From assembly GCA_043735365.1 (NCBI GenBank), contig JAYTEJ010000101.1, positions 1 through 30,972 on the forward strand: a stretch of 30,972 bases of DNA, read 5' to 3'. Made by a program: the position numbers and the translations under genes. Positions 4,169-21,294 of the stretch are shown here, piece after piece. Source of the stretch: Acidobacteriota bacterium (GTDB lineage: Bacteria > Acidobacteriota > Vicinamibacteria > Vicinamibacterales > 2-12-FULL-66-21). A model generated the notes under the pieces. It did no database searches. It had not been told where the DNA came from and was given only the letters and a program-made list of their open reading frames with translations. Numbering within the stretch: the stretch's first letter is position 1; each line of letters starts with the position of its first letter.

Positions 4169-4618
4169 ATGGCCCTGCCCACGCACATCGATCTGCAGAT
4201 CGTCACGCCGGAGCGGCGCATCGTCCAGGACCAGGTGGACGAAGTGGAGATTCCAGGCGCCGAAGGCTACTTCGGCGTCCTGCCCGGACACACGCCGCTG
4301 CTGGCCGCGCTCGCCGTCGGCGAGCTCTGGTACCGCAAGGGACAGGAGAAGTTCTACCTGTCGATTGCCTCCGGCTTCGCCGAGGTCCTACCCGACCGGG
4401 TGACGATTCTCGCCCGGATCGCCGAGCGCGCCGAGGAGATCAGCGTCGAACGCGCCGAAGCGTCGAAGAAGCGCGCCGAGGAGCGGCTCGCGAAGGCGGT
4501 GTCGGACATCGATTACGAGCGCGCCCGGCTGGCGCTGATGAAGTCCATCGCCAGGCTCGATGTGTCGGCGCGCGTGCCGGGGAGCGGCAGGCGGCTGCGT
4601 GACGCCGTGAAGGGCTAG
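4169..4618 (+). CDS. atpC: ATP synthase F1 epsilon subunit
   Basis: LQIVTPERR, GYFGVLPGHTPLL, SGFAEV, C-terminal helices. Last gene of the F1 cluster. Confidence 0.97.
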   Translation: MALPTHIDLQIVTPERRIVQDQVDEVEIPGAEGYFGVLPGHTPLLAALAVGELWYRKGQEKFYLSIASGFAEVLPDRVTILARIAERAEEISVERAEASKKRAEERLAKAVSDIDYERARLALMKSIARLDVSARVPGSGRRLRDAVKG

Positions 4619-4627
4619 GGCGCCATC

Positions 4628-5410
4628 ATGACGCCGGCGCATTCGCTCTCGTGGGCGGTCAGCACGGACCCGGGTCTCAGACGGACGAGCAACGAAGACA
4701 GCTACGCGACCCGCGCCGACGTCGGCCTGTTCGTGGTCGCCGACGGCATGGGCGGGCACGTCGCCGGCGAGGTCGCGTCGCGGGTGGCGGTGGAGGCGAT
4801 CGCAGCCTTCGTCGAGGAAACCGCCGTCGTCGACAAGAACCGCACCTGGCCGTTTCCGTTCGATCCCGGCCTCAGCCTCGAGGCCAACCGGCTCAAGGCG
4901 GCCTTCCGGCTCGCCAATCGCCGCATCGCGTCGGCGATCGCCGACTCCCAGGATCTGCGCGGCATGGCGACGACCGCCTCCGCGGTGCTGATCGGGAAGG
5001 CCTCGGCCAGCGTCGGCCACGTCGGCGACAGCCGGGTCTACGTCCTCAAGGACGGCGCGCTCTCCCAGATCACCCACGATCACTCCTGGGTCGAGGAGCA
5101 GGTCCGCGCCGGAACGCTGACCCCGACCGCGGCGCGCCAGCATCCCTGGCGCAACGTCGTCACTCGCGCGCTTTCGGGAGGGGACGATCCGGAAGTGGAC
5201 GTCGTCGAGGTCGCGCCAGCCCCCGGCGAGCGCTACCTGCTCTGTTCGGACGGGCTCTTCGGCGTCGTGCCTGACGACCGCATCGCCGCCATTCTCGGGC
5301 AGACCGACGTGCCGCTCGAGAACATCTGCCGCGGCCTGATCGATGCCGCCAATGAAGCCGGCGGCCCCGACAACATCACCGCCCTCGTCCTCGCCCTCGA
5401 TGTTCCATAA
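4628..5410 (+). CDS. PP2C/Stp1-family Ser/Thr protein phosphatase
   Basis: TDPGLRRTSNED, FVVADGMGGH, GHVGDSRVY, LLCSDGL, GGPDNIT. Confidence 0.95.
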   Translation: MTPAHSLSWAVSTDPGLRRTSNEDSYATRADVGLFVVADGMGGHVAGEVASRVAVEAIAAFVEETAVVDKNRTWPFPFDPGLSLEANRLKAAFRLANRRIASAIADSQDLRGMATTASAVLIGKASASVGHVGDSRVYVLKDGALSQITHDHSWVEEQVRAGTLTPTAARQHPWRNVVTRALSGGDDPEVDVVEVAPAPGERYLLCSDGLFGVVPDDRIAAILGQTDVPLENICRGLIDAANEAGGPDNITALVLALDVP

Positions 5411-6188
5411 CCTGGCGCGGCTGTTCCGCTACCGCGGGCTGATCCAGAGCCTGGTGGCGCGCGAGCTCAAGGCCCGCTATCGCGGATCGGTGCTCGGGTT
5501 CTTCTGGTCGTTCATCAACCCGCTGCTGCTGCTGACCATCTACACCCTGGTCTTCAAGTACGTGATGCCCGGCACCCACACCGGCGTCGAGCCCTACGCG
5601 GTGTTCATGTTCTGCGGCATCCTCCCCTGGACGTGGTTCTCGTCGTCGCTGGCCGAGTCGGCCAACGTGCTGATCTCCGGCGGCAACCTGATCAAGAAGG
5701 TGCTCTTCCCCGCCGAGATCCTGCCGATCGTGACGGTGCTGGCGAACATGATTCACTTCTTCCTGGGGATGACCATCCTGGCGGCGTTCCTCGCCTGGTA
5801 CCGCCTGCCGCCGGGGCTGACGCTGCTGTGGCTGCCGGTGGTGGTCTTGATTCAGCTGATCCTGACGGTCGCCTTCGCGCTGGTGCTGTCGGCATTGACG
5901 GTGCACTTTCGCGACATCCGCGACATCCTCTCGAACCTGCTGACGTTCTGGTTCTTCGCCACGCCAATCATCTACCCCTGGTTCCAGGCGCCGCCGCTGG
6001 CGAAGCAGTTCCTCAACCTCAACCCCTTCACCCATCTCGCGGTCTCGTATCAGGAGATCCTGTTCTTCCGCGGCGACTTCGGCCATCTCCGCTGGCTGCT
6101 GCTCCTCGGCGCCATTTCGGTGGCGTTCTTCCTGTTCGGCTATTTCATCTTCGACCGGCTCAGAGACACGTTCGCGGAGGAAGTGTGA
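5400..6188 (+). CDS. wzm: Wzm-type ABC-2 permease of a glycan (O-antigen/cell-surface polysaccharide) exporter
   Basis: RELKARYRGSVLGFFWSFINPLL, NLIKKVLFPAEILP, FRDIRDIL, FFATPIIYP, LNPF. Start moved to ATG 5400 (MFHNL), overlapping the phosphatase stop. Confidence 0.9.
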   Translation: MFHNLARLFRYRGLIQSLVARELKARYRGSVLGFFWSFINPLLLLTIYTLVFKYVMPGTHTGVEPYAVFMFCGILPWTWFSSSLAESANVLISGGNLIKKVLFPAEILPIVTVLANMIHFFLGMTILAAFLAWYRLPPGLTLLWLPVVVLIQLILTVAFALVLSALTVHFRDIRDILSNLLTFWFFATPIIYPWFQAPPLAKQFLNLNPFTHLAVSYQEILFFRGDFGHLRWLLLLGAISVAFFLFGYFIFDRLRDTFAEEV

Positions 6189-16543: not shown

Positions 16544-17947
16544 TTATGGCAGCTTTACGGCGGCGGCCGTCGGCTCGAGCCGCTTCAATTTCTCGATCAG
16601 CGTCGTCCGCTTCAGGTTCAGCAGCTTCGCGGCCTGCCGCTTGTTCCCCTGGGTCCGTTCGAGCGATCGCCGGATCAGCGACAGCTCGACCCCCTCGATA
16701 TAGCGCTCGAAATCCAGCCCTTCGTCCGGGAACCACACCGCGGCGGCATCGACCGGCGCGGCCTGCGTCTGGATGTCCGGCGGCAGGTCCTGAACGTCGA
16801 GATGCAATCGGCCGTGGTTGAACGCGAGCGCCCGCTCGACGATGTTTTCGAGCTGGCGGACGTTGCCGGGCCATGGGTAGGCCATCAACCGCCGCAGCGC
16901 GTCCTGCGAGACGGTCACGTGGCCGCGTCCTGACTCTCCCGCCAGCTTCTGGAGGAAGTGCTGGACTAGCAGCGGCACGTCCTCGCGGCGCTCGCGCAGC
17001 GCCGGCAACTGCACCGGGATGACGTTGAGCCGGTAGAAGAGATCCTCCCGGAAGCTGCCGTCGGCCACCATCCGCGACAGGTCCGAATGGGTGGCGGCGA
17101 TGATGCGCACGTCGATCTTGACGGTGTGCGAGTCGCCGACCCGCTCGAACTCCCGCTCCTGCAGCACGCGCAGCATCTTGGCCTGCAGCGCCGGGCTCAT
17201 CGTCCCTACTTCGTCGAGGAAGAGCGTCCCCTTGTGGGCCTGTTCGAGCTTGCCTTGCCGTGTCGCGATCGCCCCGGTGAAGGCGCCGCGCACGTGACCG
17301 AAGAGCTCGGCCTCGAGCAGCGTCTCTGGGATGGCGCTGCAGTTGATGGCCACGAAGCGGTTGGCGCGGCGCGGGCTGTTGTGGTGGAGCGCCCGCGCGG
17401 CGAGCTCCTTGCCGGTGCCGGTCTCGCCGGTAATCAGCACGGTGCTCGACGTCGCCGCGACGGTCTGCAGCAGCTGAAAGAGATTGCGCATCGGAGCGCT
17501 CTGTCCGACCAGTCCCTCGATGCGGTAGCGATCTTCAAGCTGCGAGCGGAGATACGCATTCTCGGACTTGAGCCGCCGTTGCTCGAGTGCCGAACGGACC
17601 ACGTGGAGGAGAGCATCGAACTGGAACGGCTTGGTGATGAAGTCGGCGGCCCCCTGCTTGATGGCCTCGACGGCGTCCTTCACCGTGCCGTAGCCGGTGA
17701 TGACGATCGGGATGATCTCCGGGTAGCGCTCGAGCGCCGCGTCGACGACCTGGCGGCCGTCGATGCCCGGCAGGCGGAGATCGGTGATGAGGATGTCGAA
17801 GGCGAACTCGGCCAGGCGCTGCAGCGCCGCTTCCCCGCTGCCGGCCTGTTCGACCACGAAGCCGTGATCCGCCAGGCGCTCGGCGATGGCCTCGCGCAGC
17901 GCGGCCTCGTCGTCCACTATCAACAGATGCTTGGGATCTTCAGCCAT
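16544..17947 (-). CDS. Sigma54-dependent response regulator (REC-AAA+-Fis HTH), FleQ/FlrA-like C-terminus
   Basis: REC LLIVDDE...LITDLRLP...TKPF; [49 protein letters not shown]; [19 protein letters not shown]. Confidence 0.95.
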
Positions 17948-17958
17948 GGAGGCAGATG

Positions 17959-17972
17959 GTCGGTATTTTGAC
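17959..17972. promoter_or_regulatory. Candidate bEBP binding box upstream of the activator gene (autoregulation)
   Basis: GTCGGTATTTTGAC. Its reverse complement GTCAAAATACCGAC matches the 18610-18623 box at 12/14 positions. Lies 11 nt from the ATG. Confidence 0.5.
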
Positions 17973-18046
17973 ACCCCCAGGGTCCGGCGGTCAACGAGAG
18001 CCGCGGCGCAGGGCCAGAATGAGGGCGCGCGCGTGTGCGCGGCAGC

Positions 18047-18075
18047 CTACAGCGGGGCGCCCACCCGTCCGATAA
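18047..18075 (+). promoter_or_regulatory. Candidate sigma28 promoter for the HTH/mini-DHp pair
   Basis: CTACAG-N15-TCCGATAA. The -10 is 7/8 to GCCGATAA; the -35 is TACA versus TAAA, with a spacer 1 nt longer than the enteric consensus. Confidence 0.45.
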
Positions 18076-18141
18076 CATTCTCGAACTTCGAATGCGGTAA
18101 CCCGTTCCGGTCCGGTTCATCCGGGCGTGGCGATGAGAGCG

Positions 18142-18342
18142 ATGATCAACGATCGCAAGACGATTTCGATCATGAAGGCGTGCGAGATGGTCGGGGTGAG
18201 CCGACGCACGATCTACAACTGGATTGCCGGCGGCAAGGTCGAGTATGTGCGTACGGCCGGCGGATCCGTTCGCATCTTCGTCGATACCCTCTGGCGGGAC
18301 CCCGGCCGGGCCGGGGAGCTGACCGGCAAAGAAGCGTCATGA
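18142..18342 (+). CDS. 66 aa HTH_17/MerR-like DNA-binding protein, BldC-like
   Basis: ISIMKACEMVGVSRRTIYNWIAGGKVEYVRTAGGSVRIF follows the W-x3-GK-x4-RT-x-GG-x2-R pattern. Confidence 0.88.
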   Translation: MINDRKTISIMKACEMVGVSRRTIYNWIAGGKVEYVRTAGGSVRIFVDTLWRDPGRAGELTGKEAS

Positions 18343-18578
18343 GGGGGGCCACCGATGCCCACTCCGCGAGGATGCCCGTGAGCGAACGGCCGGATCTGGG
18401 CTTGCTGTTTCACCGGCTGAACAACCAGTTGGGGATCATCCTGGCCAACGCCGAGCTGCTCGAGGCCAAGGCGGCCGACGAGATGACGCGGGCGCGCGCC
18501 TCGCAGGTGGTCGCGAGCGTGCTCGACGCCATGGCCACCGCGCGCGAAGTCCGCCTCCATTCGAAGCTCCCGAAGTAG
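18339..18578 (+). CDS. Stand-alone HisKA/DHp-like mini protein (68-79 aa)
   Basis: LLFHRLNNQLGIILANAELL is an H-box (His codon 18411), followed by a second helix and a stop, with no ATPase domain. ATGA overlap with the HTH gene; alternative ATG at 18372. Confidence 0.8.
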   Translation: MRGATDAHSARMPVSERPDLGLLFHRLNNQLGIILANAELLEAKAADEMTRARASQVVASVLDAMATAREVRLHSKLPK

Positions 18579-18579
18579 C

Positions 18580-18623
18580 GTCAAGGTTTTGGCAACACAT
18601 GCCACGCTCGTCAAAATATTGAC
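18580..18623. promoter_or_regulatory. Tandem candidate enhancer (bEBP UAS) boxes
   Basis: GTCAAGGTTTTGGC (18580-93) and GTCAAAATATTGAC (18610-23, inside the perfect inverted repeat TCGTCAA-N4-TTGACGA), 30 bp apart. Confidence 0.6.
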
Positions 18624-18693
18624 GAACCGTTCGGCACGCTTCCGCCCGTACCTGCGCACACCTTCACACTGATTCACGCTTTAAGTTGTTAAA

Positions 18694-18756: not shown

Positions 18757-18772
18757 TGGTACTCCCGTTGCG
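18757..18772 (+). promoter_or_regulatory. Sigma54 (-24/-12) promoter of the sigma28 gene
   Basis: TGGTAC-TCCCG-TTGCG has exact GG-N10-GC spacing and ends 55 nt before the ATG. Confidence 0.75.
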
Positions 18773-18827: not shown

Positions 18828-19739
18828 ATGCAGCGTCAGCCCCTTGCCGCCCATCATCAGGACCGAATTGCCGCCGGACTGCCATTCGTGGAGTCGCTGG
18901 CGCGTCGGGTGGCCGCCTCGATGCCGCATTCAATCGAGCTCGGAGACCTGGTGCAGGACGGCATGATCGGCCTCATCGACGCCGCCTGCCGCTTCGACGA
19001 AGCCCGCGGCATCAAGTTCGAGACCTTCGCCGAGCGGCGCGTCCGCGGGGCAATGATCGACGCGCTGCGCCGCGACGCCTGGCCGCGCGGCGTCCGCCGC
19101 CAGCGGCGTGAGCTCGAAGCGGCGCGCGAAGCGCTGCGCCGCGAGCTCGGCGCCGAGCCCTCACTCGCCGATCTGGCCAAGCGCGTCGGTTCCGACGAGG
19201 CGCGGCTCGGCCGCACTATCGTCCGCATTCACACCATCGAGTCGACGTCGCCGATGTCGGCCGCTGAGCACGTCGACCACGCCTCGCTTCCCGCGGTCCT
19301 CGTCCCCTGCGAGCCGCCGACGCCCGACAAGGCCTACGAACAGCAGGAAGTACGCGACCGCATGCGCGCCGCGATCGCCTCGCTGCCGCCGCGCGAGCGC
19401 CGGGTGATCGCGCTCTATTACTATGCGGAAGCGACGATGAAGGAAATCGGGGCGGAGATTGGCGTCAACGAGTCGCGGGTGTCGCAGCTGCACGCCCGCG
19501 CGGTGCAGCGGTTGAAGAAGGCGCTTGGCGCCGAGTGCTTCGCCGAGGCGCCGATGAGCCCGGCGATTCTCTCGTTCCAGGCCACCATCCGCCGCCGCCG
19601 CATGGCCAAGGCCGATCTGCCGCAGGGGCCCGGCGTGGTGTTGCAGTACCGCGCGCCGGAAGCGACGGCGCCGGTGCGGCGGCAGACGGCGGCGTCGCGC
19701 CGGCCCGCGGCCGTCGGCGCGGTCGCAGCCGCGCGCTGA
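18828..19739 (+). CDS. fliA: FliA/WhiG-family (sigma28) RNA polymerase sigma factor with C-terminal extension
   Basis: DLVQDGMIGLIDA, FETFAERRVRGAMIDALR, WPRGVRR, EATMKEIGAEIGVNESRVSQLH. GGAGG SD before ATG 18828. Confidence 0.9.
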   Translation: MQRQPLAAHHQDRIAAGLPFVESLARRVAASMPHSIELGDLVQDGMIGLIDAACRFDEARGIKFETFAERRVRGAMIDALRRDAWPRGVRRQRRELEAAREALRRELGAEPSLADLAKRVGSDEARLGRTIVRIHTIESTSPMSAAEHVDHASLPAVLVPCEPPTPDKAYEQQEVRDRMRAAIASLPPRERRVIALYYYAEATMKEIGAEIGVNESRVSQLHARAVQRLKKALGAECFAEAPMSPAILSFQATIRRRRMAKADLPQGPGVVLQYRAPEATAPVRRQTAASRRPAAVGAVAAAR

Positions 19740-19749
19740 TCACCGCGCA

Positions 19750-21294
<1,545 letters not shown>

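What the first reader, a model, noticed from the sequence alone, without database searches (positions are those of the whole stretch)
18047..18342. BldC-like mini regulator behind a sigma28-like promoter
Seen: 66 aa protein with WIAGGKVEYVRTAGGSVRIF, preceded by CTACAG-N15-TCCGATAA. Established, from recall: Streptomyces BldC is a ~68 aa MerR-like protein containing WAKAGKLTSIRTLGGHRRY that oligomerises head-to-tail on DNA. Inference: this is a chromosomal BldC-type regulator in the sigma28 regulon rather than an excisionase. Its pairing with a WhiG-family sigma outside Actinobacteria is notable.
Basis: partly seen in the sequence, partly recalled or inferred. Interest (0 to 1): 0.7.

Follow-up and report, generated by a model that had tools for sequence, protein, structure and literature searches.

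The report
Small DNA-binding regulator behind sigma-28 promoter
A real, very strongly conserved 66-residue DNA-binding protein of soil Acidobacteria (order Vicinamibacterales), annotated in databases as an 'excisionase', is instead a chromosomal regulator gene behind a conserved sigma-28-type promoter inside a five-gene signalling island; what it controls is still unknown.

Summary
Window 18142..18342 (+) encodes a 66-aa winged helix-turn-helix protein, and CTACAG-N15-TCCGATAA lies at 18047..18075.

The gene is single copy. It was found in 40 of 41 relatives, across all 17 families sampled, and in none of about 185 Acidobacteriota outside the order. In 77 of 80 species-level loci it sits in the same island: sigma-54 activator (-) | HTH, 79-aa DHp mini-protein, FliA/WhiG sigma (+) | hybrid kinase (-).

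The two-box motif precedes the gene in 78 of 79 loci. Its spacer is always 15 nt and varies in sequence. Elsewhere the motif mostly sits just upstream of genes for secreted proteins or lipoproteins. A sigma-28-type promoter is therefore well supported, though untested at the bench. The contig carries no integrase, so the gene is not a phage Xis.

'BldC-type' holds only for the fold. The BldC family model scores 22 bits against a cut-off of 77. A phage Xis matches slightly better than BldC in both sequence and structure.

Three genomes keep promoter, DHp gene and sigma gene but lack the HTH gene, so it is an accessory member of the operon. Its target is unknown.

The scan noted this cassette earlier in other Vicinamibacterales genomes, mainly for the DHp protein.

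The parts
18047..18052 (+). -35-like box CTACAG of the sigma-28-type promoter
   Evidence: Read. CTA[C/T/A]AG is found in 69 of 79 orthologous loci and CTAATG, CTATTG or CTACTG in 9 more. The P. aeruginosa fliC -35 element is TCTAAAG (PMC12784957).
18068..18075 (+). -10-like box TCCGATAA, against the sigma-28 consensus GCCGATAA
   Evidence: nCCGATA lies exactly 15 nt after the first box in all 78 loci that have the motif. The consensus is taken from PMC12784957.
18083..18083 (+). predicted transcription start (inference only)
   Evidence: Placed by analogy with the P. aeruginosa fliC promoter, where GCCGATAA spans -15 to -8. No RNA data could be obtained.
18083..18141 (+). predicted 59-nt 5' leader
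   Evidence: It folds no better than shuffled sequence (z +0.98). Leader length and sequence differ between clades.
18142..18342 (+). 66-aa stand-alone winged-HTH protein (HTH_17, 'excisionase family' domain)
   Evidence: Pfam HTH_17 scores 34.1 bits against 27 and TIGR01764 scores 36.7 against 28.8. The AF2 model has pLDDT 80.9, a beta-alpha-alpha-beta-beta fold and a low-confidence tail from about residue 51. 31 columns are invariant across 18 sequences from 17 families.
18339..18578 (+). 79-aa DHp-like mini-protein with an invariant His, translationally coupled to the HTH gene (ATGA overlap)
   Evidence: F24, H25, L27, N29, Q30, L31 and G32 are invariant. It matches no Pfam or NCBIfam family. 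It was found in 37 of 41 relatives.
18757..18771 (+). sigma-54-type promoter TGGTAC-N5-TTGC ahead of the sigma-28 gene
Evidence: Read directly. Here I only confirmed that it is present.
18828..19739 (+). FliA/WhiG-family sigma factor gene (probable start ATG 18828)
   Evidence: TIGR02479 scores 200.6 bits against 189.6. It is the only match above the cut-off in the genome. A GGAGGA box precedes ATG 18828.
16544..17947 (-). divergent NtrC-type sigma-54 activator (REC, AAA+ and Fis-type HTH domains); probable start ATG 17947
   Evidence: Alignments to relatives begin at about residue 10 of the longer ORF.
17965..17994 (-). sigma-70-type promoter-like site for the activator gene (TTGACC-N18-CAAAAT with TG)
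   Evidence: Its two boxes are the most conserved 7-mers of the intergenic region, present in about 65 of 77 loci.
19750..21294 (-). convergent PAS hybrid histidine kinase (HisKA, HATPase and REC domains)
   Evidence: It is syntenic in 80 of 80 loci.

Best explanation
The gene encodes a stand-alone winged helix-turn-helix DNA-binding protein of the MerR/Xis/BldC fold. It is a lineage-specific chromosomal regulator of Vicinamibacterales and not a recombination directionality factor. It is the first cistron of a two-gene operon (HTH, then a DHp-like His mini-protein). That operon is transcribed from a conserved sigma-28-type promoter, most likely by the FliA/WhiG-family sigma encoded about 490 nt downstream, whose own gene carries a sigma-54-type promoter. 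This places the HTH protein in the last tier of a cascade: hybrid kinase and NtrC-type activator, then sigma-54, then sigma-28. Shown here: the gene, its fold, its conservation, its synteny, and the conservation and architecture of the promoter. Inferred: which sigma uses the promoter, and that the protein binds DNA. It probably binds through the recognition helix (R21-W27) and the wing (R37-R44). It would then act as a late-tier output or feedback regulator, possibly at sigma-28-dependent promoters of envelope-protein genes. Its DNA targets are unknown.
For: Gene and fold: HTH_17 and TIGR01764 score above their cut-offs. The AF2 model has pLDDT 81 with a beta-alpha-alpha-beta-beta fold. The best structural matches are Pukovnik Xis (TM 0.74-0.77), BldC bound to DNA (0.70-0.76) and MerR-family N-domains. 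Not mobile: the gene is single copy, was found in 40 of 41 relatives across all 17 families, and lies in the same five-gene island in 77 of 80 loci. The contig carries housekeeping genes and no integrase. Strong selection: 31 invariant columns, with core identity above that of every neighbouring protein. Promoter: the two boxes keep an invariant 15-nt spacer in 78 of 79 loci, while the spacer sequence and the distance to the ATG vary. The boxes resemble the TCTAAAG and GCCGATAA elements of a structurally characterised sigma-28 promoter. The motif is enriched in these genomes (109 against 34 reversed-control hits). For 18 of 22 other hits examined, a high-GC3 open reading frame starts 6-108 nt downstream on the same strand, and most of these products look secreted or lipoprotein-like by eye. 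They include an orthologous lipoprotein of about 390 aa in three families. No sigma-70-like site lies upstream on the + strand. The motif stays in front of the DHp gene in three genomes that lack the HTH gene, so it is not the HTH protein's own operator. There is only one FliA-family sigma above the cut-off in this genome and no flagellin. One same-order genome that lacks the island's sigma, DHp and HTH genes has no motif hit.
Against: There are no expression data, and no RNA run could be listed. The spacer is 1 nt longer than in the P. aeruginosa fliC promoter, and the -35 box usually reads CTACAG and not CTAAAG. Assigning the promoter to this sigma therefore rests on resemblance and co-occurrence only. 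No conserved candidate operator for the HTH protein was found in the island's intergenic regions, beyond the promoter boxes and the activator-type boxes. Three genomes run the island without the HTH gene, so it is dispensable for the core circuit. DNA binding is inferred from the fold alone.
Confidence: 0.6

Rival explanations
1. It is a true BldC-family regulator. It would oligomerise head-to-tail on direct repeats, distort DNA, and repress or activate developmental-type genes.
For: It has the same stand-alone wHTH architecture and size. BldC-DNA complexes are among the top structural matches (TM 0.70-0.76). The local motif W..GK....RT.GG..R is shared, and Thr27, Trp31 and Arg48 of BldC are kept as T23, W27 and R44. 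The M. tuberculosis putative DNA-binding protein Rv0500A also appears among Swiss-Prot fold matches; that it is the BldC homologue is my recollection.
Against: NF033787 scores 22.2 bits against a cut-off of 77 for the window protein. All 18 orthologues match that model only weakly (best E 7e-6), while all match the 'excise' domain model (best E 5.6e-11). A phage Xis matches better than BldC. The BldC wing residues His46 and Arg47, which read the AT-rich minor groove, are Ser and Val here, and Lys33 and Thr29 are also changed. No direct-repeat array was found in the island.
Confidence: 0.15
2. It works mainly through protein contacts, like E. coli TorI, an excisionase-fold protein that inhibits a response regulator. 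Here it would act on the adjacent NtrC-type activator, on the DHp mini-protein or on the sigma factor, giving negative feedback on the cascade.
For: It is encoded beside a response-regulator activator and is translationally coupled to the DHp gene. TorI appears among the fold matches (rank 26). The extreme conservation of nearly the whole 50-residue core would fit several interaction surfaces.
Against: No test here supports any such contact. Either gene of the pair can be lost while the other stays: the HTH gene in G031, G123 and G182, and the DHp gene in G039. That argues against an obligate HTH-DHp complex. The basic recognition helix and wing are typical of DNA binders.
Confidence: 0.12
3. 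The conserved two-box element is not used by the neighbouring sigma-28. It would be read by another sigma factor or be a regulator binding site, so the gene would lie outside the sigma-28 regulon.
For: The spacer is 1 nt longer than the canonical one, and the -35 box deviates (CTACAG). A strict canonical pattern found almost nothing in five relatives that carry a second FliA paralogue. Sigma dependence was not measured.
Against: nCCGATA(A) is the hallmark sigma-28 -10 element. The fixed spacer with a variable distance to the ATG, and the correct orientation upstream of many other genes, fit a promoter and not an operator. The two boxes are neither direct nor inverted repeats of each other. The motif co-occurs with the island's sigma gene.
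Confidence: 0.15
4. It is a phage or ICE excisionase (recombination directionality factor), as its database annotation says.
For: TIGR01764 'excise' scores above its cut-off. The best PDB match is mycobacteriophage Pukovnik Xis. JGI and NCBI name its homologues 'excisionase family DNA binding protein'.
Against: No integrase or other mobile-element gene lies on the 31-kb contig. The gene is single copy. It keeps the same housekeeping and regulatory neighbours in 77 of 80 species-level genomes and in all 17 families. It shares 77-100% identity with the best match in most relatives across the order, which points to vertical inheritance.
Confidence: 0.03

Closest known systems
BldC of Streptomyces (PDB 6AMA, 6AMK; NCBIfam NF033787)
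   Same: A stand-alone MerR-like winged HTH of about 66-68 aa with no effector or dimerisation domain, chromosomal and regulatory. The structures superpose with TM about 0.7-0.76 over 45-48 columns at 23-24% identity. The W..GK....RT.GG..R motif is shared. BldC also acts at whiI and whiH (PMC6428758), which I recall as sigma-WhiG-dependent genes (own knowledge).
   Different: It falls far below the family cut-off (22 against 77 bits). The wing residues His46 and Arg47, and Lys33 and Thr29, are replaced. It belongs to a different phylum. It is co-transcribed with a DHp mini-protein, beside its sigma gene. Head-to-tail oligomerisation has not been tested.
Mycobacteriophage Pukovnik Xis gp37 (PDB 4J2N) and the HTH_17 / TIGR01764 'excisionase family' domain
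   Same: This is the best sequence and structure match: phmmer E 9e-4, profile E 1.7e-5, 34% identity, TM 0.74-0.77, rmsd 1.0 A. It has the same minimal beta-alpha-alpha-beta-beta fold.
   Different: There is no integrase and no mobile element. The gene is single copy, inherited vertically and fixed in a regulatory island.
Chlamydia EUO (early upstream ORF product)
   Same: The DNA-binding domain has the same wHTH fold (Swiss-Prot fold matches at ranks 4, 10 and others, TM by query about 0.63). From my own knowledge, EUO represses late promoters, including sigma-28-dependent ones, in a non-flagellate bacterium.
   Different: EUO is about 180 aa with an extra C-terminal domain and shares 24-27% identity. 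It is expressed early, not from a sigma-28 promoter. No link beyond the fold was tested here.
E. coli TorI (response-regulator inhibitor with excisionase fold)
   Same: A 66-aa Xis-fold protein tied to two-component signalling. It appears among the fold matches (rank 26).
   Different: TorI is prophage-encoded and also serves as that prophage's excisionase (own knowledge). Identity is 15%. No interaction was shown here.
Sigma-28 (FliA/WhiG/SigD) promoters, such as P. aeruginosa fliC
   Same: The boxes are CTAnAG and nCCGATAA against TCTAAAG and GCCGATAA, with a GC-rich non-conserved spacer.
   Different: The spacer is 15 nt between the boxes as written, against 14 nt in fliC. C or T is preferred at the fourth position of the -35 box. 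No flagellin was found in the genome. The downstream genes encode regulators and envelope proteins.

Membership tests
BldC family transcriptional regulator (NCBIfam NF033787) | Score at or above the curated cut-off of the family model (77 bits) | tested here: not met
   The window protein scores 22.2-22.3 bits. All 18 orthologues hit the model only weakly (best E 7e-6).
BldC family transcriptional regulator (NCBIfam NF033787) | Protein consists only of a MerR-like wHTH, with no coiled-coil or effector domain | tested here: met
   The protein is 66 aa. The AF2 model shows E7-9, H10-17, H21-29, E35-37 and E43-46, then a low-confidence tail. It matches the BldC structures with TM 0.70-0.76.
BldC family transcriptional regulator (NCBIfam NF033787) | Conservation of the BldC DNA-contact residues (Asp24, Thr27, Thr29, Trp31, Lys33, His46, Arg47, Arg48) | tested here: not met
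   Using the alignment and the residues named in PMC5859096, T23, W27 and R44 are kept. The other positions read S20, Y25, A29, S42 and V43.
BldC family transcriptional regulator (NCBIfam NF033787) | Cooperative head-to-tail oligomerisation on DNA direct repeats | not testable with these tools
   This needs footprinting or a co-crystal structure. No direct-repeat array stood out in the island's intergenic regions.
Excisionase / recombination directionality factor | HTH_17 / TIGR01764 DNA-binding domain | tested here: met
   TIGR01764 scores 36.7 bits against 28.8 and PF12728 scores 34.1 against 27.
Excisionase / recombination directionality factor | Encoded in a mobile element next to its integrase, with patchy or multi-copy distribution | tested here: not met
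   None of the three PF00589 matches in the genome lies on this contig. The neighbours are ATP synthase, Mfd, SurA, Dus and regulators. The gene is single copy and syntenic in 77 of 80 loci.
Classical MerR family (PF00376 plus a coiled-coil dimer) | MerR HTH model above its cut-off, and a C-terminal dimerisation and effector region | tested here: not met
   PF00376 scores 25.5 bits against a cut-off of 28.2. There is no structured region after residue 50.
Sigma-28 (FliA/WhiG) regulon member | Promoter matching the sigma-28 -35 and -10 consensus at a suitable distance upstream of the gene | tested here: met
   CTACAG-N15-TCCGATAA ends 66 nt before the ATG. It is conserved in 78 of 79 loci. The spacer is 1 nt longer than in P. 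aeruginosa fliC.
Sigma-28 (FliA/WhiG) regulon member | A FliA/WhiG-family sigma factor present in the genome | tested here: met
   TIGR02479 scores 200.6-201.8 bits against 189.6. It is the only match above the cut-off in the genome.
Sigma-28 (FliA/WhiG) regulon member | Transcription that depends on that sigma factor | not testable with these tools
   No RNA run could be listed. This needs in vitro transcription or a sigma mutant.

The most novel reading that the evidence does not exclude
The stand-alone wHTH is a dedicated partner of the non-flagellar sigma-28. It would be made by sigma-28 RNA polymerase and would then bind at sigma-28-dependent promoters to shape their output. If so, a pairing of 'MerR-like mini-regulator plus FliA/WhiG-type sigma' would recur independently in Actinobacteria (BldC at whiI and whiH), in Chlamydiae (EUO at sigma-28 late promoters) and in Acidobacteria. 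The evidence does not exclude this. No operator was found, and the three HTH-less genomes show that it would be a modulator and not a requirement.
Probability: 0.15. Interest if true: 0.7.

Novelty: new member of a known kind. Interest (0 to 1): 0.4.

Why it matters
Thousands of database entries call this protein an 'excisionase family DNA binding protein'. Here it is the most conserved product of a regulatory island present in all but one of the Vicinamibacterales families sampled. That order is abundant in soil and almost unstudied genetically. The result corrects the annotation. It also adds a clear chromosomal example to the stand-alone Xis/BldC-fold regulators, and it gives a sharply defined promoter motif (CTAnAG-N15-nCCGATA). 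With that motif, the regulon of a non-flagellar sigma-28 can be predicted and tested. The interest is moderate. The logic, an alternative sigma driving a small regulator, is ordinary. The protein's targets are unknown. The more unusual parts of the island, the sigma-54 to sigma-28 cascade and the DHp mini-protein, are separate findings already noted by the scan.

Tried and rejected
1. Complex prediction with two copies of the DHp mini-protein plus the HTH protein gave no verdict (score 0.31, mark 0.32). It is not used as evidence either way.

2. The look-up of sequencing runs for RNA listed no RNA holder, so TSS mapping with read laying was not possible.

3. The 5' leader was folded as RNA. 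It is no more stable than shuffled sequence (z +0.98), so I make no claim of a structured leader.

4. I searched for a sigma-54 promoter in front of the HTH gene. GGCAG-N6-AGC near 18041-18054 is one base out of register, so I rejected it by eye. The genuine sigma-54-type site lies ahead of the sigma gene.

5. A strict canonical flagellar-type pattern (CTAAAG-N12-16-GCCGATA) was searched in five relatives that carry a second FliA paralogue. It gave one hit in all, so nothing can be said about spacer-length insulation between the two sigma paralogues.

6. I tested the idea that the gene is a recently domesticated Xis. Its nearest paralogues (42-54% identity) are themselves chromosomal: four lie between an SBP_bac_5 gene and a subtilase gene, and one lies beside housekeeping genes. 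There is no support for the idea.

7. A k-mer conservation scan of the two intergenic regions looked for an extra conserved block that could be the HTH operator. It recovered only the promoter boxes, the TTTTGACAC and GGTCAA boxes and the sigma-54 elements.

8. RsiG-like or FlgM-like anti-sigma identity for the 79-aa neighbour found no support. There is no family hit, and the RsiG motif, recalled from memory, was not seen by eye.

Full report
**Observation**

An ORF runs from ATG 18142 to TGA 18340-18342 and encodes 66 aa (one search shows the longer GTG-initiated version). Alignment of the upstream regions of 20 same-genus loci shows that ATG 18142 is the conserved start. The in-frame GTG 18127 and ATG 18133 are not conserved.

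CTACAG lies at 18047-18052. Exactly 15 nt follow, and then TCCGATAA at 18068-18075. GC3-based gene calling and family scans give the neighbourhood:
- a divergent NtrC-type sigma-54 activator (16544-17947, minus strand)
- the HTH gene
- a 79-aa ORF that overlaps the HTH stop codon by ATGA (18339-18578)
- a FliA/WhiG-family sigma gene (TIGR02479, 200.6 bits against a cut-off of 189.6)
- a convergent PAS hybrid histidine kinase (19750-21294, minus strand)

**What the protein is**

Pfam HTH_17 (34.1 bits against 27) and NCBIfam TIGR01764 'excisionase family DNA-binding' (36.7 against 28.8) both score above their cut-offs. The BldC family model NF033787 scores 22.2 bits against a cut-off of 77, and classical MerR scores just below its cut-off. 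All 18 orthologues scanned behave the same way.

Against solved structures, the best sequence match is mycobacteriophage Pukovnik Xis (E 9e-4 for the single sequence, 1.7e-5 for the family profile). BldC scores E 0.3-0.5.

An AlphaFold2 model built on the orthologue alignment has mean pLDDT 80.9. It shows a beta-alpha-alpha-beta-beta winged HTH over residues 7-46 and a low-confidence tail from about residue 51. Foldseek ranks Pukovnik Xis first (TM 0.74-0.77, rmsd 1.0 A, 34% identity). BldC-DNA complexes follow immediately (TM 0.70-0.76, 23-24% identity), then MerR-family N-terminal domains, RdfS and RacA. Reviewed UniProt entries with the same fold include M. tuberculosis Rv0500A, Chlamydia EUO, SoxR and CueR N-domains, and TorI.

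It appears in the alignment. I mapped the BldC DNA-contact residues listed in PMC5859096 onto that alignment:

| BldC residue | This protein | Kept? |
|---|---|---|
| Thr27 | T23 | yes |
| Trp31 | W27 | yes |
| Arg48 | R44 | yes |
| Asp24 | S20 | no |
| Thr29 | Y25 | no |
| Lys33 | A29 | no |
| His46 | S42 | no |
| Arg47 | V43 | no |

His46 and Arg47 are the wing residues that read the AT-rich minor groove in BldC.

The protein therefore shares the fold and the 'wHTH only' architecture with both BldC and Xis. It is not a member of the BldC family as NCBI defines it. In sequence it is marginally nearer to Xis.

**Chromosomal or mobile**

The gene is single copy in this genome. A close homologue (77-100% identity in most relatives) was found in 40 of 41 relatives, covering all 17 families sampled from the order. 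It was found in none of about 185 Acidobacteriota genomes outside the order at E 1e-10.

Public homologues number in the thousands. The best 120 clusters share 82-97% identity with the query. The few that carry an organism name are Acidobacteria or Vicinamibacterales, and JGI calls them 'excisionase family DNA binding protein'. The records fetched are likewise titled Acidobacteriota or Vicinamibacterales. Two very short contigs binned elsewhere are the exception.

In 20 loci from 17 families, and again in 80 species-level loci, the order 'activator (-) | HTH, DHp, sigma (+) | hybrid kinase (-)' recurs. It is complete in 77 of 80 loci; the other three show no sigma-gene match within the stretch fetched.

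The whole contig carries housekeeping genes: ATP synthase, Mfd, a SurA-like gene, a NusG paralogue and Dus. The genome's three integrase-family matches all lie on other contigs. The excisionase reading is therefore rejected.

Across 18 sequences, 31 columns are invariant. The HTH core is more conserved than any neighbouring protein of the island.

**The promoter**

In 78 of 79 loci with enough upstream sequence, a CTAnnG box is followed after exactly 15 nt by nCCGATA. Of these, 69 read CTA[C/T/A]AG. The spacer sequence varies freely, and the distance to the start codon ranges from 16 to 176 nt. That is the behaviour of a two-box promoter and not of a leader element or an operator.

The boxes resemble the sigma-28 elements seen in the P. 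aeruginosa sigma-28 open complex: TCTAAAG at -36 to -30 and GCCGATAA at -15 to -8. The fliC promoter printed in that paper has 14 nt where this lineage always has 15 (PMC12784957).

The pattern is enriched genome-wide. It occurs 3 times against 0 for the reversed control in this genome, and 109 times against 34 in 41 relatives. I examined 22 hits outside the island. For 18 of them, a high-GC3 ORF starts 6-108 nt downstream on the same strand. By eye, most of these ORFs begin with a signal peptide or lipobox. One lipoprotein of about 390 aa carries the motif in three different families.

No sigma-70-like site lies upstream on the plus strand. No intrinsic terminator separates the DHp gene from the sigma gene.

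This genome has one FliA-family sigma above the cut-off and no flagellin match, at 91.5% completeness. One same-order genome (G026) lacks the island's sigma, DHp and HTH genes and has no motif hit, although it has a higher-scoring FliA paralogue that is presumably flagellar.

It remains inference: no RNA data could be obtained.

**What the comparison adds**

Three genomes from two families lack the HTH gene: G031, and G123 and G182. All three keep the activator gene, the same promoter motif placed directly in front of the DHp gene, the sigma gene and the kinase gene. Two conclusions follow:
- The motif is not the HTH protein's own operator.
- The constant cargo of the promoter is the DHp gene, and the HTH gene is an accessory first cistron.

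Conversely, G039 keeps the HTH gene but has a 454-aa ORF that I read as an IS256-type transposase (not scanned against a family library) where the DHp gene should be. G025 has about 8.7 kb inserted between the DHp gene and the sigma gene. Either partner of the pair can therefore be lost, which argues against an obligate HTH-DHp complex. A complex prediction gave no verdict (listed under Tried and rejected only).

The sigma gene has its own TGGTAC-N5-TTGC element at 18757-18771 and GTCAA-N4-TTGAC-type boxes upstream. The island then reads as: kinase and activator, then sigma-54, then sigma-28, then the HTH-DHp operon.

**Mechanism**

Most likely (about 0.6) the protein is a DNA-binding late-tier regulator. 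It would be produced when the island's sigma-28 is active, and it would act on promoters as output or feedback. Its sites are unknown. A k-mer conservation scan of the island's intergenic regions found only the promoter boxes, the TTTTGACAC and GGTCAA boxes and the sigma-54 elements.

The rivals are:
- a genuine BldC-like head-to-tail oligomeriser (0.15)
- a TorI-like protein-binding inhibitor of the activator or another island protein (0.12)
- a promoter read by something other than this sigma (0.15)
- an excisionase (0.03)

**Comparison with known systems, and novelty**

The BldC paper already states that BldC-like stand-alone wHTH proteins are widespread in bacteria and structurally close to Xis (PMC5859096). 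A chromosomal regulator of this fold outside Actinobacteria is therefore not new in kind.

What is specific here:
- an order-wide, near-invariant orthologous group that is mis-annotated as excisionase
- a sharply conserved sigma-28-type promoter
- co-transcription with a DHp mini-protein, beside a non-flagellar FliA/WhiG sigma gene

The parallel with Streptomyces is functional at most. BldC binds whiI and whiH (PMC6428758), which I recall as sigma-WhiG targets. No gene linkage between bldC and whiG is known to me.

The scan has noted this cassette before in several other Vicinamibacterales genomes, mostly for the DHp protein. Those notes agree with the picture here, and I did not use them as evidence.

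One of the 41 relatives (G022) is unpublished. It enters only the tallies, and no claim depends on it.

**Verdict**

The gene is a new member of a known kind of small regulator, in an interesting but separately reported island. Interest 0.4.

Noticed in passing
L049 (G031:C13:564000-576000); L154 (G123:C220); L155 (G182:C140): Three genomes from two families carry the island without the HTH gene. The CTACAG-N15-kCCGATA promoter sits directly in front of the DHp gene, followed by the sigma gene.
   Followed up: yes
L029 (G039:C3), about 4365-5729 minus strand; L050 (G025:C8): In G039 a 454-aa ORF, which I read by eye as an IS256-type transposase (not scanned), occupies the place of the DHp gene between the HTH and sigma genes. 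In G025 about 8.7 kb is inserted between the DHp gene and the sigma gene.
   Followed up: partly
window 17965-17994 (minus strand): TTGACC-N18-CAAAAT with a TG extension lies just upstream of the activator's probable start (ATG 17947). Its two boxes (TTTTGACAC and GGTCAA on the + strand) are the most conserved 7-mers of the intergenic region. A sigma-70-type promoter for the activator gene is an equally good reading.
   Followed up: partly
window 18757-18771 and 18580-18625: A sigma-54-type element TGGTAC-N5-TTGC lies ahead of the sigma-28 gene (probable start ATG 18828, preceded by GGAGGA). Upstream are GTCAA-N4-TTGAC-type palindromic boxes.
   Followed up: partly
own genome G000:C21:4280-4307 (-) and G000:C166:16727-16754 (+): These are the only two other hits of the promoter pattern in this genome. 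One is a canonical-looking CTAAAG-N15-GCCGATAT, 6 nt before an 83-aa ORF. The other is CTACAG-N15-GCCGATAG, 8 nt before a 157-aa lipoprotein-like ORF. Both recur in a close relative (G023).
   Followed up: partly
L134 (G004), L144 (G029), L149 (G038): An orthologous lipoprotein of about 390 aa, with a lipobox followed by a conserved SSTP.SPS.AGPI segment, carries the same promoter motif 36-62 nt upstream in three different families. It is a likely core member of the non-flagellar sigma-28 regulon.
   Followed up: partly
relatives G025, G026, G028, G029, G033, G035, G039, G123, G182: These genomes hold a second FliA paralogue that scores 225-249 bits, against about 184-208 for the island's sigma. 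It is presumably the flagellar one. The window's genome has only the island copy and no flagellin match.
   Followed up: partly
window 18181-18183 (Cys14 of the 66-aa protein): A single cysteine in helix 1 (motif K-A-C-E) is invariant in all 18 orthologues aligned. Its role is unexplained. Redox sensitivity is conceivable.
   Followed up: no
L156, L158, L159, L160 (G028, G032, G025, G031): A second conserved stand-alone HTH_17 paralogue (42-49% identity to this one) lies between an SBP_bac_5 solute-binding gene and a subtilase gene; these neighbours were scanned in two of the four genomes. This suggests the order uses several chromosomal 'excisionase-type' mini-regulators.
   Followed up: partly
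L059 and L095: Two contigs of 2.7-2.9 kb that carry this gene at 86-89% identity are binned as Candidatus Udaeobacter and Gemmatimonadaceae. These are probably mis-binned Vicinamibacterales fragments.
   Followed up: no
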